From: Chromera velia
Lineage: Eukaryota
DNA length: 54,043 nt
Assembly: GCA_018398765.1 (NCBI GenBank)
Contig: JAHBMJ010000230.1
Coordinates: 1-54,043 of the forward strand
Reading direction: 5' to 3'
The translations under genes were made by a program, and so were the position numbers. Position 1 is the first letter of the stretch; each line of letters begins with the position of its first letter. Positions 1 through 35,542 of the stretch are shown here, piece by piece. The notes beneath the pieces are model-generated. The model did not search any database. It was not told the origin of the DNA and was given only the letters and a program-made list of their open reading frames with translations.

Positions 1-2114
1 TGATGAAGGGGCAGCCACGCCCCTCCGGACTGATCGCTGATGATCTTTGACCTTGTCTTTAATGGGATGTGAAGAGGGTTTACCCATTTGATATACGAAT
101 ATCCCTCCCGAGTCGTATCATGAATCCCCTCCCTCTCGACACGCGCCCGTTCCTCTTTTATCAAGGGTGCCGATCGGTTGTCAGGGTCCCCATCACAGCG
201 ATACCAAATTTTTATCAAGTCTCCCACCTCTGGTTGTTTGTTTGACGGTGACCATGCAGAGGTGCATGAGCCGTCTTCGTTCTCTCTTAGCCCTCTCCCT
301 CCCAAGTGGGGGCGAACAGATTCTGGAAAAGCCTCAATCATTGCTCTGTATGCCGGCAGCATTCTCAAACGCTCCTTCTCTTTCTTCTCCTCCTCCCTTT
401 GTTTTTGAATGAATTTTTCTTTTGTCTGTTGGAGATCTGCCAGTTTCTCCAAATTTTTGTGCTCATTCTGTTTTCTCCTCTCCTTTTCGCTGTCTGTCTC
501 TCTGTCGGGATATTTCTTTACAGCAATGTCTTCTGGCCCCTCCTCTACAAACATTTCTTCCCCCCCCCCCCCCCCCTCCCCGTCCTCCTCTTCTTCATCA
601 ATATCGACCATCTGCCTCTGCAGCTCTTCATCCACTTCCGTTCTTTCTTCTTCTTCTCTCTCTCTTGCTCTCTCATCCGTATCCATCTCATCCCAAAGCG
701 AGAAGCGAGACAGGGACGTCAGGGTCCTCTGGTGCCTCCTCTCCTCCCTTTCCTCCTCTATCTCTCCTCCTCTGTGTTCTTTGTTTCTCCCTCTTGACTC
801 TAGGTGGGTAGGCCTTCTGCCTAAAGGCCGAGAAGGAGAGCTGGGGACCGCCCCCCCCGCAGCCACAACGAAAGGCTGAGGGGAGGCAAAGAGCGGACCG
901 CCCTGAGGCAATCGAGACAACCGCAAAGCCCCCCTTCCAGGCGCAGATGCAATAAGAGACCCAAAATTTGTAAAAAAGGGCCTTTGCTGCTGTTGCTGGG
1001 AAACCCCCGGCGCAGACAGAGATGAAGAGGGGACAGCCTGTTGCTGTTGCTGGGAGATGCTCAGGGCTGACAGAGACGCAGAAGGGACAGCCTGCTGCTG
1101 TTGCTGGGAAACCCCCGGCGCTGTTAGTGATAGAGACGCAGAAGGGAGAGCCTGCTGCTGTTGCTAGGACTCCGAGATGCCCAGGGCTAACAGAGACGCA
1201 GATTCTGAAGGGACAGCCTGCTGCTGTTGTTGGGAGACGCCTGGGGCTGACAGAGATGCAGAAGGGACAGCCTGCTGCTCTTGCTGGGAGATGCCCGGGG
1301 CTGACAGAGACGCAGAAGGGACAGCCTGCTGCTGTTGCTGGGAAACCCCCAGCGCTGTCAGTGATAGAGACGCAGAAGGGACAGCCTGCTGCTGTTGCTG
1401 GGAGTCACCCGGGGCTGACAGAGACGCAGAAGGGACAGCCTGCTGCTGTTGCTGGGAGATGCCCAGGGCTGACAGAGACGCAGAAGGGACAGCCTGCTGC
1501 TGCTGCTGGGAGACGCCCAGAGCTGACAGAGACGCAGAAGGGACAGCCTGCTGCTATTGCTGGGAGACGCCCGGGGCTGACAGAAACGAGAAGGGGACAG
1601 CCTGCTGCTGTTGCTGGGAGATGCCCGGGGCTGACAGAGATGCAGAAGGGACAGCCTGCTGCTGTTGCTAGGAGACGCCCGGGGCTGATAGAAATGAGAA
1701 GGGGACAGCCTGCTGCTGTTGCTGGGAGACGCCCGGGGCTGACAGAGACGCAGAAGGGACAGCCTGCTGCTGTTGCTGGGAGACGCCTGCGGCTGACAGA
1801 AACGCAGAAGGGACAGCCTGCTGCTGCATGGAGGATGCTGCATACATCTGCTGTGCTACCTGAGTGCCTTGAAGCTGCTGCAGCTGTTGGAGGAAGCTCA
1901 ACTGCTGCAAAATTTGATTCGGGTCCCCCTGCCCAAAAAGAGAGCCCAAATTGACCCCTCCAAAAAAGTTTGGCAAGGGCGGGGCTGAAACCAGAGCGGG
2001 AGCAGCAGGGGGTGGGACTACTGCAGCAGCACCCGAAGCAGCAGAAGCAGCAGGATCCTCTGCCTGACTAATCGGTGGATATATCTTCGGCCCACAAAGT
2101 ATGAAGTCATTCGT
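1..2114 (-). pseudogene. Degenerate exon(s) encoding a Q/A/P-rich 18-aa tandem repeat followed by an acidic/coiled-coil region; runs off the window edge
   Basis: There is a splice acceptor (TG)nCAG at 2115, then TNDFILCGPKIYPP...PGVSQQQQQAVPSASLSA repeats with CAG>TAG stops at 1668-1670 and 1164-1166. After an apparent frameshift near 900, a frame (EIEEEREERRHQ...DEEEEDGE...KIWYRCDGDPD...YIKWVNPL) stays open to base 1. That frame is absent from the ORF track because it has no stop in the window. Confidence 0.55.
985..1828. repeat. Minisatellite, ~15 copies of a 54-bp unit with some 60/66-bp variants
   Basis: The unit gaagggacagcctgctgctgttgctgggagacgcccggggctgacagagacgca recurs at 1261, 1315, 1375, 1429, 1483, 1537, 1591 and onward. 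All unit lengths are multiples of 3. Confidence 0.95.
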
Positions 2115-4271: not shown

Positions 4272-7200
4272 ATGGACGTGTGGCTTGCTGGGATCGGGGA
4301 GGGCAAGGGTGGCATGCTCCTGCACCGCCTTCTTCAGCTCAGCAAACGCACGCGACTGTGCAGTCTTCTATTCGAAGGGGACGTTCCCCTGGAGGAGGAA
4401 TGTGAGAGGCCCCGCAAGAAACGAGAACCTCGGGACAAACCGGCGGAACCAATTGGCCAGTCCTAGAAACTGGCGCAGGGAAGTGCGGTCTGTGGGTTGT
4501 ATGAACTCAGTGAGCCCTTGCATTTTCTCATGGCTTGGTCTGACCCCCTTCTCATCAACCACCAACCCCAAAAATTTCGCTTCTGTCCGAAGCCATGCGC
4601 ATTTAGAGACCTTGACGTAGAGCTGGTGTTCCCTCAAAAGGGAAAGGACTTGGTTGATGTGCTCAATATGCTCCTCCGGAGTGCGGCTGAAAACAAGAAC
4701 ATCATCAATAAACACAACAACACACTTGTCAAGGAGTGGTCTAAGCACATCTGTGATGAGACGTATACTGATGGAAGGTGCGTTACACAAACCAAACGGC
4801 ATCACCAGCTATTCAAAACTGCCGTACCTTGTGACGAATGCCGTTTTCTCCTCGTCTCCTTCCCTGATCCTTGTCTGATGGAAGTATTGCCGTAAGTCCA
4901 GAGACGAAAAAAATTTTGTGCTGTGGAGGCGACTCAGCAGCTCCTCTGGATGAGGAATGGGGAATTTGTCGCGGATTGTGATCTTGTTAAGTCCCGTGAA
5001 GTCGATGCACATCCGTTGCATCCCGTCTGCCTTCTGCACAAACAGGACTAGCGCAGCATATGGACTTGTTGAAGGGCGGATATGCCCTTTCTTGAGGTAT
5101 GAGTCTAACTGCCATCTCAGTTTGTCAAGTTGACCGTATGACAGTCGGTAGGGTGCTCTCACAGGAGGAGAGTGCCCTGCCTTGAGCTTGATCTCACACT
5201 CGATCTTTCGGTGGGGCGGGAGACCCGGGAGCTCGTCTGGGAATCGATCAAAATGTTTCTCGAGAACCGGTCGGATGCTGGGTGGGACTTCTTTGCTCTG
5301 GAGGTGCTTTCGGAATCCCGTGTAGGTTGAAGAATTGATGGGATGGTCAAGAGGGAAAGATGAAAGGGGCGGTGGGTCTCCGGGATTACCGGCAGACTGC
5401 AGGGAATACACTCCCAACGTATCACTCACCCCCCCCTTCTGCACTGCTTCGAGGCGGAATAGATGCACACGGGAACTGGGTCTCTTCATCAGCCGACGGA
5501 GCTCTCTCTGGCTAAAGAAGTCCTCCCCCTCCCCTTCCGCCGGGTACTCCTCGCTGTCAAGCAGGAGCAAGTCTCTCCCGGTCGGCGACTTACACGCGGG
5601 GATCGTGAGGGCCTTCTCACGGTAATGTGGGATAGGAATATACTCCTCACAGAAGGGCATCCCCAACACAACATTGTAATCATCGTCCAGATCGACTACT
5701 GTGAGATTCAGAGGCGCGCTGAAGCCCTGGATGCAGAGGGGAAGGCCTTTGACCTCCTGGGAAATCGGAAGCTGCGGTCCCCCGTTCAACCCGCCCTTGC
5801 ATGCGGTCGGCTCATCAAGATCCCAGAGAGTGAAACGGTTCGACTCGGCAACGGAATGGGCAAGGAAGTTCGAATCTGCCCCAGGATCGTACAGACAGCG
5901 AACAGGGACCCCTGCCAACCAACCGTGGAAGCGGATGAGCTTCCCCGGTGCGCGGGAGGTCTTCGTGGAGTAGTATCTGCNNNNNNNNNNNTGACCGTAT
6001 GACAGTCGGTAGGGTGCTCTCACAGGAGGAGAGTGCCCTGCCTTGAGCTTGATCTCACACTCGATCTTTCGGTGGGGCGGGAGACCCGGGAGCTCGTCTG
6101 GGAATCGATCAAAATGTTTCTCGAGAACCGGTCGGATGCTGGGTGGGACTTCTTTGCTCTGGAGGTGCTTTCGGAATCCCGTGTAGGTTGAAGAATTGAT
6201 GGGATGGTCAAGAGGGAAAGATGAAAGGGGCGGTGGGTCTCCGGGATTACCGGCAGACTGCAGGGAATACACTCCCAACGTATCACTCACCCCCCCCTTC
6301 TGCACTGCTTCGAGGCGGAATAGATGCACACGGGAACTGGGTCTCTTCATCAGCCGACGGAGCTCTCTCTGGCTAAAGAAGTCCTCCCCCTCCCCTTCCG
6401 CCGGGTACTCCTCGCTGTCAAGCAGGAGCAAGTCTCTCCCGGTCGGCGACTTACACGCGGGGATCGTGAGGGCCTTCTCACGGTAATGTGGGATAGGAAT
6501 ATACTCCTCACAGAAGGGCATCCCCAACACAACATTGTAATCATCGTCCAGATCGACTACTGTGAGATTCAGAGGCGCGCTGAAGCCTTGTATGCAGAGG
6601 GGAAGGCCTTTGACCTCCTGGGAAATCGGAAGTTGCGGTCCCCCGTTCAACCCACCCTTGCATGCGGTCGGTTCATCGAGATTCCAGAGAGTGAAGCGGT
6701 TCGACTCGGCAACGGAATGGGCAAGGAAGTTCGAATCTGCCCCAGGATTGTACAGACAGCGAACAGGGACCCCTGCCAACCAACCGTGGAAGCGGATGAG
6801 CTTCCCCGGTGCGCAGGAGGTCTTCGTGGAGTAGTATCTGCAAAACGAGTAGCCATTCCGCATGCCTGCATTCTGATTCTGCTGTTGCGAGCCCCACAAC
6901 CCCGGCGGGAAGTCAGTGACTGGGCGTGCGGCAGGCTGCCACATCTGCTGGTGCTGCATGGGCGAAGGTGTGAGGCCTGAGGGCACCACCGGACCCTGAG
7001 GTTGCATGAGAGGGTTACTGACCCCCATGTGCCTGAAATTCCGATTGTCAGGACGGGGAGGGGCATTCCGATGCTGCTGTTGTTGCTGCTGAAATGACTG
7101 GTATGGGAAGTTTCGGTGCTGCTGGGGGAGGAGACGGTTATTAGACTTTGGGCACCTGTTCACCCGGTGGCCCTGTTGGTGGTAGTTGAAACATCTGTCT

Positions 7201-8027
7201 TCTCTGATGTGCCTCTGCACCTGCTCGTGCGACAGTGCATATAAGCGCGACAATCTATCTATTTCCATCGGTGCAAGCCCATCTGTGTTGCGCTGTTACA
7301 CCGCGTGCCCGCCTCCATCGGCGCGCTCGCCTCAGATCAATTGGTCTTCCTCGTCTGCCACTGTCATGACGGCCTCAAGTCCCGTGACTCCCCGACGCTT
7401 CACAGCGAGACGAATGTTAGTTGGCAATCCCCTGAGGTAGTCGTACAGTAGGTCGGCTTCTGTAATATCCTCAATCTGCATGGCCTTCTCTATGAAGTCA
7501 TCAGTGTACTTCTGTACTGTCTTGTTCCCACATTTCATCGCTTGGACTTCCTCTCGCAAACGTGTCTGAGCATTTGGGTCTTTGAACTTCTTCCCAATCC
7601 TCTCTTTAAAATTCTTCCACCCCTGGAACGGTGTTCGGAGGTTTTTAAGCTTGTACCACCTGTGCAGGGGACAGGATAGGTATTGACATGCTGCTTCGCA
7701 TTTCTCGGCTTCCAACGCTCGCGATAAGCGAAGCCATCTCTCGGTTATACGGAGCCAATCTAGGAGTTGTTTGCGGCTGCCTGCGTACGTAAACGGCTCT
7801 TTGGGTTTCAAATTTGACTTCACGGCCGCTGGAGGGCTGTTCTCCGCGGTGCCTTGTTGTGCTGTTACGATTGTCTGCTGGTGGTTGATCAGCTCTTGGT
7901 GTAGCTGTTGATTCTGTTGGGTTAACTGCCCGTTTTGGACCTGCAGTGCCTGGATCTCAGCTTGCTGCTGCTGTTGAGTTTGAATAAGCTGCTGAATGAG
8001 CTCAGAAGTGATAGAAGACGGGTCCAT
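4272..8027 (-). pseudogene. gag-pol polyprotein, a single frame with 4 premature stops
   Basis: The Gag ORF 8027-7332 is in frame with the ORF 7268-4809 across TGA 7332-7334 and TAA 7296-7298, leading into the GLAPMEID motif. The knuckle is degenerate (CFNYHQQGHRVNRC). The protease site is YDPGADSNF. TAG replaces the expected Trp codon at 4809-4811 (FE*LVMPFG) and at 4368-4370 (VPFE*). Confidence 0.9.
5131..6841. repeat. 850-bp direct duplication (5131-5980 / 5992-6841) flanking an N gap; probably a contig-overlap artefact
   Basis: Both copies begin tgaccgtatgacagtc and end gtagtatctgc. They abut the N run at 5981-5991 exactly. Confidence 0.9.
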
Positions 8028-8090
8028 CCTGCCCGCACTTCAAACAATGGTTGAGAGGCAGAGCGGGGTCTCCTTGAGGCAGAGGACCGG

Positions 8091-11173: not shown

Positions 11174-11395
11174 GGACCCAGGAGGGAGGTCTACTTGGAC
11201 CTTCCATCTGGGTCTGAGAGACCGGTCTCCCAGACCCAAACCGAAGGTGGGGTCCGACCTGTGACTGGAAGACTCTCTGAAGATGTTCTGAAGGCCTATT
11301 CCAGTCACAGGTTGGAACTCACCTTCAGCTTGGGTCTGGGAGACCGGTCGTTGAGACCCAGATGGAAGGTCAAAGTGGACCTTCCTTCTAGGTCT
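11174..11395. repeat. Foldback element: 97-bp imperfect inverted arms with a 28-nt loop
   Basis: 11174-11270 pairs with 11299-11395. Examples: gaccttccatctgggtct / agacccagatggaaggtc and acctgtgactggaa / ttccagtcacaggt. Confidence 0.9.
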
Positions 11396-14427: not shown

Positions 14428-17328
14428 TCAGTACGCCCTCCAGTAGTACGATAACGGTGCATGCACCCCTTCAAGAAACTCATCCTTTCCTGCATGCAAC
14501 CGTCTCCTTGCCACAACTGCTGCTGCCGTGCCTCTTCCGTACGGGTCGGAAACCTGGTTCGACCGGGAACCGGAGGAACGGGGTGGAGACCCTGGCAAGG
14601 CAATACTTGGAGACCTTCGTGGACTCGGGTTGAACGGCTTTGGCGCGCTTCGTGCGTCTTCTCTAACGAGGTCGAGCAACCCGCTTTGCGGTGTTGGCTG
14701 CGGTGCGTAAGCAGAAAGTGGTTGTTCCCAATGCGGTTTCGGTATCGCACGTGAAGGCCATTCAGAGGTTTTCTCGTTCCGCGTGCGAGGCGGAGTTTCA
14801 CGCAAGGGAAAGTCCTCCCGGGGGTCGGATGGAGGAGAGACAATGTTAAAGTTTGACTTTGGGGGTTTTGGAATTGCGAACCAAACGAGAGGCCGCGCAA
14901 ATGCAGGTAGGACCGGAAGAGGTCGGTCCTTTGAGAAGTCTCTGGAAGTGATTTCTGCGAGAACGTCTGCTGCTGCCCCGAACAGCTCTGCGTAGGTCTC
15001 TGGAGTATGGCGTCTCCTGCTTCTGCTGTTAGAAGAATACTGTTTCTTTCCCCGCCCTCCCCTTAGAAGGTCCTGAAGACTCGGGAGGTCAAACGGCAGG
15101 TGCTTTGCCAAACTGTCGCTGCTGCCCATAGACGCCAGGGCAGCAGTGGGTGAGTGCCCTGAGGGTAGAGAAGAAGACGAACAAGTAGAGCAGTGGGAGG
15201 ACCGTCTCCTTCCTCCCCTGGCCCTGCTGGGGCTTCCTGATGGTGACAGTGGAAGGCCGCCTGCCCTGTTACTGTTAATCAGCTGCGAGGAGGAGGTGCC
15301 CTCTCTCCATTGCCCCTCCTCTCCGTACAGAACCGCACTCTCTGCCTGTCTGGCCAGGTCTCTGTGGAGCCATTGGCCTGTTGCAGGAAGAAAGGTGTAG
15401 GCACGGATGAGGAGCTCTGCGTTCTCAGCAACCCAGAGAACGGAGTCCCGGAGGATGCGGAGTTGCTCGTCTGTCATCGTGAAGTGCACACCTACCTGCA
15501 AGCAGAAAGAGAGGGTGAAACATGCGAAGTGTGGATGAGGCGGGAAGAAGTGAGAGGCCAGTCACGAGCACAAATGAACGAGGGGCATCTATCTGTTAAA
15601 GCCATACAAGAAAGGAACAATGTCGTCCATTCAAACCCAAGCTTGTTCGGGTCTTCCAGCAAGGGCTCTCTGTCCCCATTACCCGATCTTGAGAATCAGA
15701 ATTGACGATCTAAGATGAACACAAAGACCGTTGTATGAATCACCCCCAGACTTATTGTCGCGTTTCACACCGTTTGCATACATATGTGTTCATACCCTCT
15801 TTCGCTCGATGCAAGCAAGCCTCGATCATGCACCCACCCACCCGAGTCACTCCGGGTTTCAGAATTCCGAGCCCCCCGAGGTCCACAGCGTCTGCTAGGG
15901 CGTCTGCTTGCTGATCTGGGACCTCGAGAAGGTCAAGAAGGTAAGGTCCTGCGCATGCGCAACCCGCACGCGACTGAATACCGAACACATCGTTCAACAA
16001 CGCACACACGAGTTGGTGGTGCACGAAAAGAACCTGGCTGCCTCCTCCTCTCGCGTTGTCACCTCGTTGTTTCCCCCCATTGGATGCCCATGGGGCAAGG
16101 ATAAGAAAAGAGATGATGCCTAGACGCCCAACACCCACACCCCCAGCCTCCCTATCCATGCCGTCATTCTTCATCTTTCTGCCAGAAGAGCCAGACGACC
16201 GTCTGACAGGGTGGCAAGAGGCAAGGGAGCGACTGGAGGGGCCAATCAATCGGATCTTCGGGTGGTCCCTCCAGGCCTTCAAGAGGTAATTTGCCTGCGC
16301 GTCCTCTCTCGCCCTCATCGAACACCCCCCGCCTCTCTCCCCCCTCAGTCCCAAGTGCACTGAGCACACGAGACCCAACCGGACTGCCCCGATGATATCT
16401 GGAGTTCCCGCCTCCTCGCGCTCTTCTTCCTCCTGCACGGAAACATCACACACACACGAAGTGAAAAGAGAGACGGTGACAAGAGAAGACGGAAGCATCA
16501 AACAGTGCTTCGGGAAGTGGACTTCCGCAAGAATGTCCCTAGCAGGCTTGAAGCACCCGCAACTCAACGTACCAGAATGAATCTCTGCCCAGTCCTGGTC
16601 ACCATCGAGACTGTCCCCCCCCCCGGGGCAGCTGGTGTCTCGTCACTCAGGAGCCACCGCCGAACGACCAGGACTCCCGGCGTTCCGGGTCCCCCCAGCA
16701 TTTTGTGGGGGGAGAAGAACGCAGCGTCTGCTCCGCTGTCGCTCTCGAAAGCGCGGCTAATCAGATGGATCGGCCTCATGCCGGGGTCTGCAGAAGGGGC
16801 AGGAGGGTGGTGGAGGCCCTGAAGAATGCCGGGGTCCGCCACCTCGACAGGCGTGTGCGCGGCTGCTGCAGCGAAGTCCCAGCAGACCAGGGCCCCGTGG
16901 TTGTGTGCTAGCTCGGTCAGGGCTCGGACATCCTGCTCGATCCCCGAGACGTTTGAGACGGCAGTGAGCAGACAAACAGGTAGCACGTGGGATGCAGGTT
17001 CTTCCGCCTGCAGACAGATCAGAAAGAGACATGAGCATAGGATGAGTGGATGTCAGAAGTCTCTCAGAGCATGGTGGAATGGTGGGAAGCGTGCAAGAGG
17101 GAAGGTTGTGGGAGGACGCATGTAGAAAAAGATTTGAGAGCCTGCACGAATTCATCCGAGTGCTCTGAAGGGAAGCTGAGTCCTCCAGAATCACAGTCTG
17201 CCTTATTTCGTTATTGTCGCAGACAAAGTTGCACACTACCTCTCGTTCATTGCATCTACGCTGAAGAAAGAAGACGCTGATCAAAGAAACAGGAAACATA
17301 CACACACACACACACACACACACATAGG

Positions 17329-22414: not shown

Positions 22415-24853
22415 GTGCAGAGCATTCCAGCGTTTCTCTTCTCTTGGCCAAACACCGGGCGCGACGCCACTCTGTCCTCCCAACCCACCACCGAGGATGA
22501 TGGTCCGGACATGGAGTTGGAGGGGGGGGAGGAGGGACCAGAGGGAAGGGAGGGGTTCCGATCCATTGAAGGGAGTGACTCCACTGCGATGCATCCCCTC
22601 GCTCGCCGGAGTGGAAGTATTTGACAAGGTGGGGGGCAGAGGGATGAGGTGGGGGACATGTACAAAATGGAAAAGGATGACTCAGATGCCGAGTTCTTCG
22701 CACAGAGCAGGCAGCGCAAGCCTAACCGAGCCAAAAAGCGGAAGAGGGGCAGACACCTGCCCAACGCCCTAAAATTCGATGCCTCCCTTCGTGGATTCTC
22801 CGAGGAAGTTCCTTCCAAGAGAAAAACTAGAAAGACATCCACACAGAAGGGAGCAGCAGCAGCAGCCGCTGGTGTGAGAAAGCCCCGCACAGCATACGGT
22901 AAAAACGCCACAGACCTCCTTATCCCTTCAGCCCAACACAAGAAGAGCCTCATGAGTGTCTCCTCATCCATCAAACATCCGAAGATCATGGTCACAGCAA
23001 AAGAGTTAGCAACAGGGCACACTCAAAACTTTGCTTCTCTGCCCCGATGCGGCGAGGCTCTCGGCATCAACCCAGGAACAATCAGCAGAGCATTAAAGTA
23101 CCAAGTAGGGTTGAACAAGAGCACAAACGAAACTGGGAGGTTCGCCTTCACTAAGATAGTGTTTCCTGCCGATGATCAGCAGCCCAGGGAGGGTGCAGCT
23201 GCTGCTGTGTCGTCTGCCGCAGGTGCTGCGTCCGCCAACCTAACACAGAGACGAGTGGCGAGAGGCTGAAAAGCCTTTTATCCCGTCGCTCTAGCTAAGG
23301 TCTCGACTACCCGAATGTCTAAAGTGGCCCCACGAGGAGGCAGGGGAGGGAAGGGCCTTGGTCGGGGGAGGGGACGCGGGAGAGGGGACCGGGGGAGGAG
23401 GGCCCGCATGTCTTCCACCAAGCCCCGAGAGGCATCTGTGATAGAAGAGGAGGAGGACGAAGGGGACAACCTGGAAAGGGAGGAGGCTGCAGAGGGGTAC
23501 CAGTATGACGCAGACGTGGATCCATCACAATGGATGGACGCTCCAGATGAGGGGGGGGAGGGAGATTAGGAGAATGAGGACGACTACTCCTACTACCATC
23601 CGGAGGGAGATTGGGAGAATGAAGACGACTACTCTTACTACCATCCGGAGGGAGATTGAGAGAATGAGGACGGCTACTCCTACTACCATCCGGAGGGAGA
23701 TTGGGAGAATGAGCGACTACTCCTACTACTATCCGGAGGGAGATTGGGAGAATGAGGATGGCTACTCCTACTACCATCCGGAGGGAGATTGGGAGAATGA
23801 GGACGAGTACTCCTACTACCATCCGGGTCCTTGGGGACCCCCTCCGGGCTATTTTAGAGACCATCCCATGCACGCACACCGAGGCTTCGGCCCTTCCTAC
23901 TACCTCCACCGCTACTCACCATACAACCAGCCCCCTTACCACCCCCCAACATCTACCTCAAACGACAACCCCTACCAGCAACAGCAAGGGCACAGAGACG
24001 GATACACAAGCAACGACAACACAGCAGGAGGCAGAGGCACCGCCCCCAACACGAAGTTCCGCTTCTCTTGGCCAAACACCGAGCGCAACCCCACTCTGTC
24101 CTCCCAACCCACCACCCAAAACCTCCCCGCGTCCACCCTTAAGACTGCTGAACAGCTCCTTCCCCCCCCCCAGCCCCCTCTCTCTGCATGTAGCAGCGCA
24201 ATTAGCTTTCCTCCTGTGCCCTCCACCCGCCCCTCTCTCATCCCCTAGGCTCAGACTAACACACTGAAAGACGCAGAAGGCTTTGCCATTCCCGACTCCC
24301 TACCTCACATGCGGCCGCCTTCACACACACAAACTGTGCACACGCCTGAGAGCAGCTGCCCTGTGACCCTGAAGAACTCTTCCCTTCAGTCCCACGAGGT
24401 CCCGGTGTCCTCCCAGATCCCCAAGGTGGAGTTGGACTCCGTCTCCCAGGCTCAGGCTCTCACTCTCACGTCCACTAAGCAGCATCTTGTCCCCTCAGGC
24501 TCCTCCTGCCCTTCCGGCACCCAGGCCTCCAACGGATCCCTCCTTGCTCGCCTTCCGTTCGTCGAGCAGAGCTCTTCTGCCGAGTCCCTCCGTGTGCCCA
24601 CTCTCGCTTCCAAGCCAGCCGCCTGCAACCTATCCACCTCCATCCTCAAGACTGGCAAAACCTGTCCCGAGGGTACCAACGACCAGGTTCATCGCACCTG
24701 CAATGTGACCCTCAAGAGGTCTTTCTTTGAGTGCGACGAGATCCCCGTGTCCTCCCAGATCTCCAAGAACGAGGAAAAAGAGGAGACGCAATACTAGAAA
24801 TTCTAAAGGGGAAGGAAAAACGACAGTTGGCGCCAAAAGAAGCAGGAAAACGG
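22415..24853 (+). pseudogene. Long degenerate ORF with a NUMOD1-like HTH, an RGG tract and a 15-aa acidic/Tyr tandem repeat
   Basis: ORFs at 22415, 22649 and 23315 are in one frame, separated by single stops (22622-22624, 23267-23269, 23567-23569). A 2-nt deletion at ~23714 shifts the frame, and further stops fall at 24246-24248 and 24795-24797. The HTH reads NFASLPRCGEALGINPGTISRALKY...GRFAF. Confidence 0.7.
23555..23826 (+). repeat. 45-bp tandem repeat x6 (PEGDWENEDDYSYYH)
   Basis: The unit is ccggagggagattgggagaatgaggacgactactcctactaccat. Confidence 0.95.
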
Positions 24854-29230: not shown

Positions 29231-29643
29231 TAGGCAGACAGAGTCCGTTTTCCTTTTTTACTATAATCTCCCTCTCCTTTCCTTTCCTTTCTGTCGTTTC
29301 CTTCCTTCCCTGCCCAAATGCAAAGTCCGGCAAAGTCTCTCCCGACCGTTTCTCGTCTCTTTTTCTTTTCACCAGTATGTCTCCGCCCTTCGAACGAACG
29401 AACTTTTGTTTCTCTGCATGCTCTCGTCAGGAGGAGAAAGAACAAAAAAATAGAGTTCCATCCAGCGAAAGGTAATAGAAGAACAATTGAGCGAAAGATC
29501 GAGGGAGAAGAGAGATCCACCATCCATCCATCCCTCTAACCATCCACTTGTACAAATAGGGTTTAATACTTAATCAACAGAAAGGGATCAACACACCTGT
29601 CGTTGTCACCGTTCTTCCTGCACCAGTTGTACTGGTGCTATTT

Positions 29644-29841
29644 CGTATGCCGGGGCCCGCCGGGTTCTTTTTTGCCCCCCCAAAGCGGCGCTTCGCCGCC
29701 GAAAACTCGACTGAACCAACCAAGTAGCCTCCAGAGCTGAAAGTTGGAGGATTTCTTACCTATCCCACTCCTATCAATTCTATGGAACAGAATCTCCAGA
29801 CTTCAACTATAGCTAGTGCACCAGCAGTTTCCTGTTTGCCA
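29644..29841 (+). repeat. Left inverted repeat
   Basis: It matches the reverse complement of 35334-35542. Identical blocks include atgccggggcccgc, gcctccagagctgaaagtt and atcaattctatggaacagaat. Confidence 0.92.
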
Positions 29842-29885
29842 GTTTATTTTTTGAAAAAAATTCATGTCCGCTCCCTTCCGTCTCC

Positions 29886-31485
29886 ATGGCTGCTGAAAGT
29901 GTGGAGGCAGCCATCGCGGCAGTGAGGCAGTGCAGAAGCATATTTCTAGATGAGGGACCCATCACGGCCCTAATTTTAGCGTTGGAAAGAAAGTCGGCCC
30001 CCCTTGAAGAGAAGAAAAACGGAGTCCTTAAATTGTTTGACTCGCTCCAATCGAAGATGACCAACTCTTTCTCTATTTTGTTCAAAAATCTGCTCTCGTC
30101 GACAATGCGGAGGCCTGAGTACGGGGCCAGGGAGGCCCCAAAAGAAATCCCAGGGCACTGGGTTACGAGGGGCTGGGCCTTTTTTGACTTGTGCAAGGAC
30201 GAATTCAATGAATTTCACGCTTCATTGAATTGGTTGTCCTACAGATTGCGTGTGTTAAACGGCCTTAAGTACTTCGCGTTGAAGTACCGAGTCCTCTTGC
30301 TTGCTACTTACCAGACGGACATTCTGATAGGGTTCCTCGGACCTCACTACGTGTGGGGGAGGGTCGTTCTGGGACTGGGGGAAGTAGATGCGTCAGCCGA
30401 GCAGGACGACATTCCGAAAGGTGATTCAATACATCTTTCTCCCCCAATGAAGCAGTGCTGGTCACACTGCGGAGGGGTGTTTGGACCGGGAAAATGGAAG
30501 AATAGGTGCATGGATGCATGAGTGCATGAACAGATGGATGGACCCTGCCTGCCTGCCTGTACTTGCCTGCCTGCCTCTCTGCCCAGCTGCCCGCCTGCCT
30601 GCCTGCCTGCCTTGCGTGCTTTGCCTGCCTGCCTGCCTGCCTTGCCTTGCCAGGCTTGCCTACCTGCCTGCCTGCCTGCCTTGCCTGTCTGCCTTGCCTG
30701 CCTACCTTGCCTGCCTACCTTGTCTGCCTGCCTTGTCTGCCTGCCTGTCTGCCGGGCTGTTCGCCTGCCTGCCTGCCTGGTGATGGATGGAGGGATAAAT
30801 GACTTGATGGTGTATGTGCGCCTCTGTGAGTGCAGAGGTGATTTGTGGAGTGGATCCCGTATTCGACATGACGGACGAGAGGATGCGTGCCTTGCTGACG
30901 ACGAACTACAAGCCCGAGGAGGAGGTGACCTCGGAGGAAGAAGGAGCGGAGGGAGGAGGGGGGAAGAAGAGAAAGCTGAAGAAAAGGCAGCCCCAAAATG
31001 ATGCGAAGAGGCGAAAGGCAGTGGAGCGCCTCCTCAAGATGGAGGCCGTCCAATTCAGGACAGCCATAGAGCGCCCCTGCGTTGTCCATCTGAGGGGAAA
31101 GGCGATCCAGGGTGTGCTGCCTGGGTTGCAGGTCGATGCCGTCTTTAACCGATGGTTCGGAGTGGAGGGGGGTGTAGCAAGACGGCTCCTTCGTCCTTCC
31201 ATTTACATGTCGTTCAGCAGCAGCAGGGTGGGGTTGGCGTCCCTTCACCTGGTGTATGATGTCCCAGACAACCCTGCAGCAATGGAGCGGGTAACGTTTG
31301 TGGCCTCTTTTTCTTCCTTTGCTGCACCAGCACCTGCAGCAGCGGCTGCAGCAGCGGCTGCAGCAGGAGCAGATGTCCTTCAGATGGCTTGGAGTGGGCC
31401 GCCACTCCCTTTTCAGCCTTCGGCGCCCACAGAGGATTCGGCCGATGACGGACAGGATAAAGTCTACTTTGATTTTGATGTTTGA
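29886..31485 (+). CDS. Two-exon hypothetical protein (~420 aa), convergent partner of the RAG1-like transposase
   Basis: ORFs at 29886-~30505 and ~30831-31485 are separated by a (GCCT)n-filled intron; the exact junction is uncertain. It has a KKRKLKKR NLS-like patch and an acidic C-terminus (EDSADDGQDKVYFDFDV). There are no internal stops. Confidence 0.75.
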
Positions 31486-31903
31486 GTCATTGAGGTTTGA
31501 GGTTTGAGGTTTGATTTTAAATAAAAAACCGTTCATTTAAATTCTATTTTAAATTTTAATTTATGCTTAAAGTATACTTATAATTTAAATTCTTTTTGAT
31601 CGAAGTATAAAATTTAAACTGAGAAATTCTAGTTTGAAATATAGTTGACGGTTAATGTATTTCATTTAAATTATAGTTTATATGCTTTATATATATACTT
31701 TATTTATTGATTTATAAATTCTAGTTAAAAATATAGTTGACGATTAATATCAATGCTATGCTATGCTACGTAAATATACGTCACCTGAATTCTATTTTGA
31801 ATTATGGTTTATAGTTAACTAGATACTTAATCTACTTAATTTAAATTAGAGTTTAAATGACTTAAAATTTAATGCTTAAAATTTATATGCTATTAATTTT
31901 TTT

Positions 31904-33107
31904 TTACATGTTTTCATCTTGGTCCTGAACGTCTTCAACGAAATCAAGCTCAACAGATATGTCTAAATCGGCATCGGAATCAGCCTCACTCTCTGACGAG
32001 AGGTCTTTCTTCTCACCTGGTGTAAGCATTAGTTCAAGGCGGGAAGCGGTCCGCGCCTCTGTCCTTCTGTCGGCGGTACTGGAAGCTGAAAAGGTCTGCA
32101 AGAGATGGCCAGTCACTAGCCGACGGCCCATGTCCAGGTCTCTTCCCTTCCACTTTTCCGTTGGGGCCTTTGTGCCAAACGAACCATGACTTGAGGCGCC
32201 TTTTGATGAAAAGGCTTCCTTGATGACCCAGTTGAAGGCTTCATGAGCCTGCATATTAAAGACCCTCCCATAAGACCCCCTCGTTCTCATCCAATACCAG
32301 GCATGCTCAAGCCTGTGGAGGGTCCCATTCCACTTTACCCCCGTATGCTTATGAATCTGCAGAAAAAGATCTTTCAACTGCCACAACGCAGCTGCGTAGT
32401 TTCCTGCCCCTTTCATATCCAAATCTGTTGTCATACGAAGAACATGTAGGCACCGAAACAACGATGTCTGCATGATCCTCTCTTTTGTGTCCGTCATGTG
32501 GCACATGCGGAACATGTCTTTGTGCTGAAGGGACAGCTTCACAACAGTCCGCCCCTGCAGACTCTTCTTTGGCAAGACGAACTTTGGGGCAGTTGGCTTC
32601 TTCAAGAGCTCCGGATTGACTACCAAAATCAGTGTGTCTGTGTTGATCAGGATGCTGTCCCTTGAAAGAGAGTTCATCTTGTGCAGGACTTTCCGTCCGC
32701 ACTGCTTGCCCTCCTCGTTTGGCTTGAGAGGGCAGTTGCACTCATGACGGCAAAGGGGCTGGATCTTGGCTTTCTTTGTCTCCTCCCCCCCTTTCCTTTT
32801 CGCTTCCTCCTCTTCCTCACAGGGGGGGGGAATTTCGTCCCCCTCTTCTGCATTCAGCTCAGCCTCACTCGCAGAGGACCCCCCCCCTTGCCTGCATTCC
32901 TGACACATGCAGGCACTTCTCCACATGGTCGTGCGAAAACGGCGAATGCAGATGAATTCTGCCGCACGCATCGCAAGGTGGAGGACATCGGGCTAGACCT
33001 CTTTGATTCATGAGGGCCACCGCCACGGCCCCACGCTGCCTTTGCAGACCCATCGGTAGCAATCTGTCGAGTGCTTTCCAGAACATGCGCAGCCTGCATT
33101 GAACTGA

Positions 33108-33147
<40 letters not shown>

Positions 33148-33153
33148 ACATAT

Positions 33154-33214
<61 letters not shown>

Positions 33215-33851
33215 CCCACTTTTGCATCGTAGCTTTGATATGTCCTCGTCGGGGCTGAGTCAGGGGGTGGAGGGTCTAAGTAGGACCTGGTTAGTCTTCG
33301 GGGGTTGAAATTGGCATCCTTCGAAACCCACTTCTTGAGCCCCTTGAGGGTCTGCATCTCTTTGTCATTCTGAAAACAGTTGCCGCAGGACGCAGCGCAA
33401 CTCACCCCTGCATATCCCTTTCCCTTGAGTTCAGCGCTCTGGTCTACAGTCCCGTAGAATTCTATTTGCATGCAGAAAGAGAAAAAGAAACAGGGGAATT
33501 ATTATGGGATAGAGTGAGAGAGAGAAAGAGGGGAAGGGAGCGGAAGGGAGGGGTGGGGAGACCAACCTTGACAGTTTTTCCTGCGTGTGGGCCTTTTTGA
33601 AGAACGATCCCGGTCGTCGAGAGAAGGGTCCCCCCAGTCTTGATCTCTAGGGCCTCGAAGAGGGAGGTGATGGTGTTGACATTCTCCTGCCAATTAGCAA
33701 TGCCGAGGCAGCAAGAGAGATCAACTCTGTACAGTGCCTCATTTAGGATACAGAGGGGCCGCATCATGAGTAAAACACACCCGCCCCCTGCACATACAGA
33801 CACACACACACACACACACACACACATGTGCACACACACACACACATACAT

Positions 33852-33895
<44 letters not shown>

Positions 33896-35252
33896 GGAGA
33901 GACCAACCGTCAGCCAGGCCAGACCCAGAGGAGCCATCGATGGAGACGACTCACTCTTGGCCGATGACTCCTTCTTCTGAGAGGTCCGCGTTGGTAGAGA
34001 AGTATTCCCCCCCCCACTCATCTTCCATCAGAAGCCGTATGTAGTCTGCAGGATTGACTGTGAATGCAGTAAAATATTTCCCCCTTCCCTCCTTGTCTTT
34101 CTCCTTCAATTTTTTTCCCACCTCCCCAACCAACTTGGAGCACGGTCGGAAGAACCCCTGCTCACGAAGCTTCTTTTGCAAGTCACACAGGGGCCCAAAC
34201 ATATCCTTGGGGTCTGGGACACCCTCGAACCCCAGAAACCTTCTCAGCCTCCCCAACTTTGTCCGGGTGAGGCCATTGCGCAGACAATAGTCGAGCCAAT
34301 CGGCTAGAGTTCTCTTCCATTTCTTGTGGAGCGAGAAATTCAGACTCTTTGCCTGCTTGCTCTTGATCTTGCACATCTTGTTCAACCCCCTCACTCTTTT
34401 AAGTCTCTTTTTGATGTGAAGGGGCATGTCTGCTCTGTTTTCCCTCTCTGTGTCTACAAAACGATACCCCCCCTGCTGTGTGTTCTCTGCAATCTTCTCG
34501 GCCAATTCCATTTCTTTGATGGGGGAGGCCTTGCACGCGATCGAAGCAAAGGCCGATGTGAGGCCTTCCGCACGCTCTTCTGCGGGCAGGCCTTTCAGCC
34601 CATACAGGTCATCTACTAGCCCAACCACTGCGGTCGTCTTGTCGGCCAATTTTTCTGCACCCTTCCCTGACCTCTCATAGTCTCGGGGGTCAAGGATGGG
34701 CGCTCCATGGAAGGACGGGGCGTCCTGACAACTGTTGAGCTTCTCAATCGTGTTGGCTCGATTTCGGCGGCCGTTCTCGTAGCTGCCGTTAGCAGCGTCG
34801 GGGTTCTCCTCGGGAATAGGAGGCAAGGGAGCTGCAGAAGAAAGCGCATCTGCGGCCTTTTTGTACTTATCATGAAGGGGCCAAGACGGGGCATCAGATG
34901 CAAATCGCTTCACAACGTGCCCCCAATACATCCCCGGCTGCTCACTCATCCGTCTCTTCCTTTTATACTGCTCTTGCTGGTAGGCATCTCGCTCCCGCTG
35001 TTGCTGTTCGGTCCACACTGCAGTGAAAGGCGGCATTTCTCTGTCCCTATAGGCCTTGATGGCCTCTAGCCCTGCTATGTGGCGGGGCCTTTCCAACGCA
35101 GGAGACGAACCGCACATGGTTGAGACAAGGTTGGTACGGTACTCTCCTAAGGGTACATGTCTGTCCTTCAGACCTTCTGCTTCTGCTCTTGTAGGTCTCC
35201 CTCCCACTCCTTTACACCCCTTCAAAGATTTGGGCGGTGGGAGCGGTGGCAT
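31904..35252 (-). pseudogene. RAG1-core/Transib-like DDE transposase, 4 exons (35252-33908, 33787-33567, 33465-33220, 33103-31904)
   Basis: First Asp: VVSIDGSSG (33936-33938). Second Asp and ZnC2: FYGTVDQSAELKGKGYAGVSCAASCGNC (D at 33442-33444). Then KG...PDVLHLAMRAAEF. ZnH2 and Glu: TLHRLEHAWYWMRTRGSYGRVFNMQAHEAFN (E at 32240-32242). Lesions are stops at 33951-33953, 33008-33010 and 32993-32995, plus an acceptor AG>AA change at 33466. Confidence 0.88.
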
Positions 35253-35333
35253 CGCGGCTTGCAACACGGCTCAGTCTGGAACTGAGCTCAAACAACAGTG
35301 AACAACACCTAAGAAATAAAAGTCTATACACAT

Positions 35334-35542
35334 TGCCAAAGAGGAAACTGCTAGTGCAGAGGCTATAGGTTGAGTCTGCAAATTCTGTTCCATAGAATTG
35401 ATGAGAGTGGGATGGGTGAGAAATTCCCTAACTTTCAGCTCTGGAGGCCACTTGGTTAGTTCAGTTGAGTTTTTGGCAGCGAAGCGCCGCCTACATATGG
35501 GCGAGGGGGAGCAAAAAGGAACCCTGCGGGCCCCGGCATGCG
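35334..35542 (-). repeat. Right inverted repeat
   Basis: It is the reverse complement of 29644-29841, with mostly transition mismatches and one ~10-nt indel. Confidence 0.92.

What the first reader, a model, noticed from the sequence alone, without database searches (positions are those of the whole stretch)
31904..35252. RAG1-core-like transposase hidden by introns and stops in a probable protist genome
Seen in sequence: after splicing three microsatellite introns and reading through three stops, the frame gives SIDGSSG ... FYGTVDQSAELKGKG-x9-CGNC ... KG-x14-PDVLHLAMRAAEF ... LHRLEH-x7-GSYG-x7-HEAFN. Established knowledge: the RAG1 core has, in the same order, SCDG (D600), FRGTGYDEKLVREVEG...CTLC (D708 plus ZnC2), KG...IDALHCDIGNAAEF, and FHKTLAH...GSIG...EGNESGN (ZnH2, E962); DGSSG is typical of Transib. 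Inference: this is a RAG1/Transib-superfamily member that looks notably RAG1-like around the second Asp and AAEF. It carries a new ~440-aa N-terminus without an obvious RING, and a Cys-rich insertion (CMCQEC...CRHECNCP...QC) between DxLH and ZnH2. It comes from a lineage far from animals.
Basis: partly seen in the sequence, partly recalled or inferred. Interest (0 to 1): 0.93.

Follow-up and report, generated by a model that had tools for sequence, protein, structure and literature searches.

The report
RAG1-like transposon with non-RAG2 partner
A 5.9-kb stretch bounded by inverted repeats holds two tail-to-tail genes, a broken one predicted to encode a RAG1-like DNA-cutting enzyme and an intact orphan gene without RAG2's sequence marks; it is likely a jumping gene of the alga Chromera that repeats the layout of the antibody-gene recombinase's ancestor with a different partner.

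Summary
29644-35542 is bounded by ~200-bp inverted repeats and holds two convergent genes: a four-exon, 1003-aa transposase gene and a spliced 394-aa orphan gene. Relatives are Chromera velia gene models. Three other loci pair both genes by neighbouring gene ids.

The three stops are Trp in other copies, and this copy's intron-2 acceptor is also broken, so its transposase is dead. Three motif spacings equal those of a coral RAG1L (0 of 200,000 shuffles). ESM Atlas ranks RAG1 first (0.96), but its fold match hardly beats CACTA. HMM searches were blank and my AlphaFold models failed.

It works like RAG1/Transib but is not a RAGL or Transib member: no 5-bp duplication, CAC end, CTT1 or RING, and no kelch/PHD marks in the partner. 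The partner's role is untested; there is only a weak HECT lead. An RNA-type contig skips the exon with the second catalytic Asp.

My literature searches found no such element in Chromera. The scan noted similar two-gene elements on other DNA (unchecked). Verdict: new variant of a known kind, interest 0.62.

The parts
29644..29841 (+). Left terminal inverted repeat. The outermost CG may instead be a 2-bp target-site duplication, with the element starting at 29646.
   Evidence: 81% to the right arm over 209 columns, E 2e-53; arms I1 and I3; ends shown
29886..30420 (+). Partner gene, exon 1 (ATG 45 nt inside the left repeat's inner edge)
   Evidence: Open frame; 90% to the full-length transcript-like protein P0013
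30421..30835 (+). Partner intron, 415 nt, GT..AG, with a (CCTG)n microsatellite
   Evidence: Joint across it in both RNA-type runs X5 and X6, not in DNA runs X1 and X2 (table 5)
30836..31485 (+). Partner gene, exon 2; total 394 aa with no internal stop; basic patch KKRKLKKR, poly-Ala, acidic tail
   Evidence: gene model P0011 is an exact substring
31486..31903 (.). 418-nt AT-rich spacer between the two stop codons (20% GC), with one AATAAA on each strand
31904..33103 (-). Transposase exon 4: KG, DxLH (D643 at 32989), Cys-rich insertion, HxxxH (H867 at 32317), GSYG, third catalytic E892 (32242), acidic tail; stops at 33010-33008 and 32995-32993
   Evidence: acceptor at 33103 fits RNA-type record 20 (table 8)
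32696..32911 (-). Cys-rich insertion CxxC - acidic linker - CxHxCxC - CGRK, predicted zinc-binding
   Evidence: Same Cys/His pattern in P0018, a second Chromera family
33104..33219 (-). Transposase intron 3, 116 nt, GT..AG; donor is predicted only
33220..33465 (-). Transposase exon 3 (82 aa, phase 0-0): second catalytic D530 (33444) and CxxC C549/C552 (33387)
   Evidence: present in models P0002, P0004, P0005; skipped in RNA-type record 20
33466..33566 (-). Transposase intron 2, 101 nt; acceptor reads CAA in this copy
   Evidence: models P0002 and P0004 of other copies splice here
33567..33787 (-). Transposase exon 2 (predicted RNase H strands)
33788..33907 (-). Transposase intron 1, 120 nt, GT..AG
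   Evidence: junction as in P0002 and P0004
33908..35252 (-). Transposase exon 1: ~300-aa new N-terminus, pre-RNase-H-like region, first catalytic D439 (33938); stop at 33953-33951
35334..35542 (-). Right terminal inverted repeat (element may end at 35540, followed by CG)

Best explanation
The stretch is a two-gene element bounded by inverted repeats, likely a cut-and-paste DNA transposon of Chromera whose 1003-aa transposase is predicted to work like RAG1/Transib and whose tail-to-tail orphan gene likely serves as its accessory protein. Shown: the repeats, both gene structures, the motifs, the lesions, related gene models at about ten loci, and splicing of the partner. Inferred from RAG1/Transib: D439, D530 and E892 would form an RNase H active site; C549, C552, H867 and H871 would bind zinc; a dimer would pair the two repeats, nick, and release the element through hairpins on the flanks; it would reinsert with a short duplication, most likely the 2-bp CG, giving 5'-CA..TG-3' ends. 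Each repeat likely holds the promoter of the gene that starts just inside it. The partner would act on the transposase or on chromatin, possibly at the Cys-rich insertion, which lies where RAG1 binds RAG2; this step is untested. This copy's transposase is dead after C-to-T/G-to-A decay, while its partner frame is intact.
For: Repeats: 81% over 209 columns, enclosing exactly the two genes.

Pairing elsewhere: 3 of 6 other partner gene models have a transposase model within two gene ids (Cvel_13850/13851, 14657/14658, 24136/24138).

RAG1-likeness: spacings D2-C 19, G-D 17 and H-E 25 equal FcoRAG1L; D2-C 19 also holds in AanRAG1L. ESM Atlas on P0002 residues 190-678 gives a RAG1 cluster first (0.96, 181 of 256 features), 9 of the 10 best family hits share its family or clan, and the RAG1 fold match has TM 0.63 over 405 residues. 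C(2)C and H(3-4)H between D2 and E is the published CMCT signature (PMC12730594).

Decay: all three stops are Trp elsewhere; 32 of 44 amino-acid differences from the other models need one C>T or G>A change. In run X1, 120 of 188 differing places are A/T here and G/C in other copies.

Transcription: the partner intron is spliced in two RNA-type runs of one study.
Against: No Pfam, NCBIfam or PDB sequence hit to RAG1 or Transib. No homolog outside Chromera among 1.84 billion representatives; all 4 hits are named Chromera models or the window's own protein.

The Atlas model is weak (pTM 0.42, pLDDT 0.49), belongs to a gene model that lacks DxLH and the Glu, and fits CACTA transposases almost as well (TM 0.61 and 0.53). 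The Atlas score calibration was not made for protein parts.

The modelled exon 3-4 junction appears in no RNA contig or gene model. The only RNA-type contig across that region skips exon 3. The ends and the duplication have two readings. Pairing rests on gene ids, not on DNA of other copies, and is known from one species only.
Confidence: 0.7

Rival explanations
1. The element is a CMCT-clade transposon outside the RAG1/Transib branch (a new lineage beside EnSpm/CACTA, Plavaka and ESTA), and the partner plays a TnpA-like DNA-binding role.
For: The first structure row in the Atlas is Transposase_21 (TM 0.53), and another CACTA row reaches 0.61. A 2-bp, dinucleotide-specific duplication recalls ESTA's TA (PMC12730594). 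There is no CAC end, no 5-bp duplication and no CTT1. D2-E is 362 aa against 253 in RAG1 and 206-214 in Transib (PMC1131882).
Against: No CACTA-family cluster is among the 10 feature rows shown; named rows are RAG1 families plus one DUF1280 set. Three spacings match FcoRAG1L exactly.
Confidence: 0.2
2. The transposase is as described, but the partner is captured cargo (perhaps a decayed HECT ubiquitin-ligase piece) that rides along with no role in transposition.
For: Atlas features give HECT clusters first, 10 of the 10 best family hits, though only at 0.89 with 124 shared features and a low recognition value. The pairing is seen in one family of one species only.
Against: The partner is kept at every locus where both ids could be matched. 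It is spliced, its frame is intact here, and it starts 45 nt from the repeat, like the transposase at 82 nt. No HECT hit in Pfam or PDB. By-eye comparison with a recalled HECT motif suggests no Cys at the catalytic position.
Confidence: 0.3
3. It is a true RAGL (ProtoRAG-type) transposon and the partner is a RAG2L diverged beyond recognition.
For: The layout TIR - gene - gene - TIR is convergent as in RAGL (PMC7204232), and the partner is near the size of a RAG2 core.
Against: P0013 has GG only at 218, 220 and 290, two of them in one glycine run, and one Cys/His in its last 120 residues. The N-terminal 150 residues are predicted helical, at low confidence. No kelch cluster appears in the Atlas rows shown. 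CTT1, RING, CAC ends and a 5-bp duplication are all absent.
Confidence: 0.04
4. The genes are host genes or a domesticated pair, and the motifs or repeats are chance.
For: There are no HMM hits, and the genes carry host-type microsatellite introns.
Against: About ten loci carry models 75-94% identical to the window's proteins. The repeats score E 2e-53, the motif test gives 0 of 200,000, and the copies decay independently.
Confidence: 0.03

Closest known systems
RAGL / ProtoRAG transposons (e.g. FcoRAGL of a coral, AanRAGL of the pelagophyte Aureococcus; PMC9435367, PMC7204232)
   Same: Two genes inside terminal inverted repeats, convergent as in FcoRAGL and ProtoRAG; a RAG1-type core with the same D-CxxC, KG-DxxH and H-E spacings as FcoRAG1L.
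   Different: The partner has no kelch GG repeats and no PHD. There is no CTT1 (an acidic tail instead), no RING, no CAC end and no 5-bp duplication. D1-D2 is 91 aa against 109, and D2-E is 362 against 256, owing to a Cys-rich insertion. The repeats are long (~200 bp) and both genes have introns.
Transib superfamily (PMC1131882; Subgroup I and II of PMC9435367)
   Same: DDE plus C(2)C and H(3-4)H; terminal repeats; no RING domain.
   Different: It has a second gene and is 5.9 kb against 3-4 kb. It lacks the CACAATG-spacer-nonamer end and the 5-bp duplication. D2-E is 362 aa against 206-214.
CMCT clade (EnSpm/CACTA, Mirage, Chapaev, Transib, Plavaka, ESTA, Lanisha; PMC12730594)
   Same: Catalytic signature met; ends can be read as 5'-CA..TG-3' with a 2-bp duplication, within the published 2-5 bp range.
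   Different: No sequence-detectable kinship to any named lineage. A CG duplication and this partner are not mentioned in the passages I read.

Membership tests
CMCT clade | [quoted passage not shown] | tested here: met
   D439, D530, C549/C552, H867/H871, E892; definition from PMC12730594
CMCT clade | 5'-CA..TG-3' termini (most cases) | tested here: inconclusive
   Met if the ends are 29646 and 35540 (left C changed to T); not met if the outer CG belongs to the repeat. One other copy's end also shows CG next to CATG (table 7), which fits both readings.
CMCT clade | 2-5 bp target-site duplication | tested here: met
   2 bp in either reading, CG or TT; one copy only, so chance is not excluded
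Transib | 5-bp target-site duplication | tested here: not met
   Flanks TATTT/TTCTT or TTTCG/CGTTC; one copy
Transib | CAC terminus with RSS-like heptamer and nonamer | tested here: not met
   Neither end of this copy begins CAC; definition from PMC1131882
Transib | Single ~700-aa transposase, D2-E 206-214 aa | tested here: not met
   Two genes; 1003 aa; D2-E 362
Transib / RAG1L | Significant sequence or fold similarity of the core | tested here: inconclusive
   Atlas features 0.96 to RAG1 and TM 0.63, and the spacing test, support it; HMM searches were blank and my own model failed
Transib / RAG1L | Placement in the clade by phylogeny | not testable with these tools
   No RAG1 or Transib protein was returned by any search, so none was on hand to align
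RAGL (ProtoRAG) | Two convergent genes within TIRs | tested here: met
RAGL (ProtoRAG) | Second gene is RAG2L: kelch GG repeats, with PHD in animals | tested here: not met
   GG at three places only, one Cys/His in the last 120 aa; definition PMC7204232. AanRAG2L itself shows no Cys-rich tail, so the kelch marks carry the test.
RAGL (ProtoRAG) | Six-bladed propeller fold of the partner | tested here: inconclusive
   Model pLDDT 33; fold searches uninformative
RAGL (ProtoRAG) | CTT1 tail Cx2Cx3GHx4C | tested here: not met
   Pattern absent; last 60 aa are 30% Asp/Glu
RAGL (ProtoRAG) | N-terminal RING / zinc-finger region (animal RAG1L) | tested here: not met
   No RING pattern and no CxxC before residue 549
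RAGL (ProtoRAG) | Hairpin-type cleavage and TIR-dependent transposition | not testable with these tools
   Needs biochemistry
HECT E3 ligase (partner) | PF00632 domain with catalytic Cys | tested here: inconclusive
   Atlas 0.89, lead only; no Pfam or PDB hit

The most novel reading that the evidence does not exclude
An alveolate RAG1-type transposon independently recruited a second subunit unrelated to RAG2 (possibly a ligase-dead HECT-fold protein) into the same tail-to-tail slot. The partner docks on a new zinc-binding insertion where RAG1 binds RAG2, the element inserts at CG dinucleotides, and skipping of the exon with the second catalytic Asp makes a dead isoform that damps transposition.
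Probability: 0.15. Interest if true: 0.85.

Novelty: new variant of a known kind. Interest (0 to 1): 0.62.

Why it matters
The origin of V(D)J recombination is told as a Transib capturing RAG2L once. A RAG1-type transposon in a photosynthetic relative of apicomplexans, with the same convergent two-gene layout but an unrelated partner, suggests that the two-gene state may be a recurring solution and RAG2 only one of several partners. That is testable: Chromera is culturable, the family has about ten annotated loci at roughly 90% identity, and both genes appear in RNA-type data. It would also add a lineage with 2-bp duplications and a new zinc-binding insertion to the CMCT clade, and would name part of the 6.3 Mb of unclassified class 2 DNA reported for this genome (PMC4501334, supplement 11). 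If the partner is mere cargo, it remains a range extension of RAG1-like transposases to chromerids.

Tried and rejected
No whole genome is held for this window, so other copies' DNA, ends and empty sites could not be read.

Sequence searches: Pfam, NCBIfam and PDB gave no RAG1, Transib, kelch or HECT hit. The search for full-length transposase relatives of 696-2000 aa found none among 3357 candidates.

Folding: AlphaFold models from shallow alignments failed for the partner (pLDDT 33) and the transposase core (pLDDT 35). Foldseek and VIA-align on them gave only generic helical matches, which is no evidence either way. The complex predictor was not available, so binding of the partner was not examined.

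Related loci: none in viral contigs, metagenome contigs or prokaryote genomes. The repeat-pattern scan returned 3 loci that match only the 21-22 pattern bases and are chance.

Reads: no holder is on record as RNA; X5 and X6 are guessed RNA, from one study. Contig depths were not used for copy number or gene ranking. A closer read-level look at the splice sites and at other copies' flanks could not be obtained.

Rejected ideas: stop-codon reassignment (other copies carry Trp codons, and both TGA and TAG occur). CpG-only decay (35 of the 40 variant rows shown, out of 296: CpA 14, CpG 11, CpC 6, CpT 4; CpG enriched, p 0.015, but not dominant; I dropped 1 row outside the element and 4 of other types). 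The first motif test used a pattern partly fitted to this protein; I rely instead. The loose order-only pattern occurred in 374 of 20,000 shuffles and is weak alone.
Full report
Observation. Joined at 35252-33908, 33787-33567, 33465-33220 and 33103-31904, they give a 1003-aa frame with three internal stops. Key residues are D439, D530, C549/C552, D643/H646, H867/H871 and E892. The acceptor of intron 2 reads CAA here, a fourth lesion.

Host and copies. Searches returned only gene models named Chromera velia CCMP2878, the window's own protein and two unnamed JGI proteins, so the host is most likely Chromera velia. The named models come from about ten loci if distinct id groups are distinct loci. 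They are 75-94% identical to the window's proteins. All models that cover the stops have Trp there (4 of 4, 2 of 2, 2 of 2), and 32 of 44 amino-acid differences need a single C>T or G>A change. In DNA run X1, 120 of 188 differing places are A or T here and G or C elsewhere. The copy is decayed; the genetic code is not changed.

Inverted repeats at 29644-29841 and 35334-35542 (81% over 209 columns, E 2e-53) enclose the transposase gene and a second gene on the plus strand, 29886-30420 plus 30836-31485. That gene encodes 394 aa without internal stop. The two stop codons face each other across a 418-nt AT-rich spacer, and each ATG lies 45 or 82 nt inside a repeat. The partner's intron is spliced in two RNA-type runs of one study and not in two DNA runs. 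Of 6 partner models from other loci, 3 have a transposase model within two gene ids (Cvel_13850/13851, 14657/14658, 24136/24138). For the other 3 no neighbour was among the proteins I retrieved. This is pairing by id, not by DNA.

Ends. The left end reads TTT-CG-TATGCC and the right end, reversed, GAA-CG-CATGCC. One reading gives 5'-CA..TG-3' ends (29646-35540) with a CG duplication; the other gives CG..CG ends with a TT duplication. One other copy's end also has CG next to CATG (table 7), which fits both. I favour the first because CMCT elements mostly end in CA..TG (PMC12730594, passages). Neither reading gives a CAC end or a 5-bp duplication.

Is the transposase RAG1-like? HMM searches see nothing. 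Two other lines do. First, ESM Atlas on residues 190-678 of P0002, another copy's model, ranks a RAG1 cluster first by features (0.96, 181 of 256 shared; shuffled proteins reach 0.95 once in 100), and 9 of the 10 best family hits share its family or clan. By structure RAG1 reaches TM 0.63 over 405 residues, but an unnamed cnidarian cluster (0.62) and CACTA transposases (0.61, 0.53) are close, and the model is weak. Second, I counted spacings in the FcoRAG1L protein printed in the supplement of PMC9435367: second Asp to first Cys 19, Gly of KG to Asp of DxxH 17, first His to Glu 25. The window's protein has 19, 17 and 25. The three occur together in order in 0 of 200,000 shuffles; I chose these three after seeing the protein, and AanRAG1L matches only the first (19, 18, 21). 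D1-D2 (91 against 109) and D2-E (362 against 256) differ. My own AlphaFold model failed, so the active-site geometry is inferred, not shown.

The insertion. The extra length between DxLH and HxxxH holds CxxC, an acidic linker, CxHxCxC and CGRK. The same Cys/His set is kept in P0018 (Cvel_15884), a second Chromera family 35% identical over 215 residues, so it is likely a real zinc-binding module. It lies in the ZnB interval that holds the RAG2-binding alpha11-alpha12 region of RAG1L (PMC9435367, main text). That placement is by motif order only.

The partner. It has no relative outside the family in one search of longer proteins, and no Pfam, NCBIfam or PDB hit. It lacks repeated kelch GG motifs and a PHD Cys/His pattern (definitions in PMC7204232, section 9). 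Atlas offers HECT ligases at 0.89, below its bar. Its fold is unresolved. Its role is the least certain part of the reading: about even odds that it works with the transposase.

Transcripts. In run X5, record 20 joins 33567 to 33100 with three letters between, that is exon 2 straight to exon 4 (table 8). This keeps the frame and removes D530 and the CxxC. X6 has a record of the same length, of which only the exon-4 piece is shown. Both runs also show a joint 32211-34050 at a 3-base microhomology, likely an internally deleted copy. The simplest cause of the skip is a transcribed copy with a broken acceptor, like this one; a regulated dead isoform is not excluded. Against my gene model: no contig or annotation shows the exon 3-4 junction, and three annotated models jump from inside exon 3 to the insertion. 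The RAG1-type KG-DxxH spacing in the skipped part argues that it is coding.

Comparison with what is known. The element meets the CMCT catalytic definition. It works like RAG1/Transib by inference and has the RAGL layout, but it fails RAGL and Transib membership on the partner, CTT1, RING, end sequence and duplication length. RAGL is in print for the protist Aureococcus, with RAG1L fragments in several other early eukaryotes listed in a supplementary figure that I could not see (PMC9435367; whole main text read, supplement searched, part 2 of 24 read).

Literature searches. No paper holds both Chromera and RAG1. None of 30 listed of 184 RAG1/Transib papers mentions Chromera. None of 25 listed of 2,615 alveolate papers mentions Transib. 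One search listed 3 papers, seen as listing only. The supplements of PMC9435367 and PMC12730594 have no Chromera or Vitrella. The genome paper has no Transib in its text or in 12 of 16 supplements, and lists only hAT, other and unclassified cut-and-paste elements (PMC4501334; passages and supplement 11). PMC1131882 and bioRxiv 10.1101/2021.09.26.461848 were seen as passages. Repbase and most subscription journals were not searchable.

Earlier scan notes. They describe similar RAG1-like two-gene elements with non-RAG2 partners in other protists and in animals. They are unchecked and are not used as support; one led me to the CMCT paper.

Verdict. A real, multicopy, decaying two-gene element; CMCT clade very likely; RAG1/Transib side about 0.75; partner functional about 0.5. 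New variant of a known kind, interest 0.62.

Noticed in passing
window 4809-8039 (-): Ty3/Gypsy-type LTR retrotransposon remains: gag (Retrotrans_gag E 1e-9), aspartyl protease and start of reverse transcriptase. An 850-bp 98.8% direct repeat straddles the N gap at 5981-5991, probably an assembly overlap.
   Followed up: partly
protein P0018 (Cvel_15884): A second, diverged Chromera family of the same transposase type (35% identity), with the Cys-rich insertion kept but the first His and the catalytic Glu positions changed.
   Followed up: partly
window 32211-34050: Both RNA-type runs show a joint that removes 1838 bases of the transposase gene at a 3-base microhomology, likely a transcribed internally deleted copy.
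   Followed up: partly
window 29700-31530 and 34600-34770: Decay of this copy is mostly C-to-T in CpA and CpG contexts (25 of 35 rows examined), a RIP-like or broad methylation-type pattern in a chromerid.
   Followed up: partly
window 11175-11394: A 220-bp imperfect palindrome (82%), possibly a MITE-like element.
   Followed up: no
window 985-1826: A 54-bp tandem repeat, 15 copies, inside open frames on both strands; weak Pfam hits there are probably compositional.
   Followed up: no
window 15755-16642 (-): Open frame with a weak aminotransferase class V hit (E 8e-4), probably one exon of a host gene.
   Followed up: no
window 23557-23826: A 45-bp tandem repeat, 6 copies, 91% alike, inside open frames; may encode a peptide repeat.
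   Followed up: no
window 29335-29600: The left flank is itself present in more than one version in DNA and is covered by RNA-type contigs, so the element may sit in or beside another repeat.
   Followed up: no
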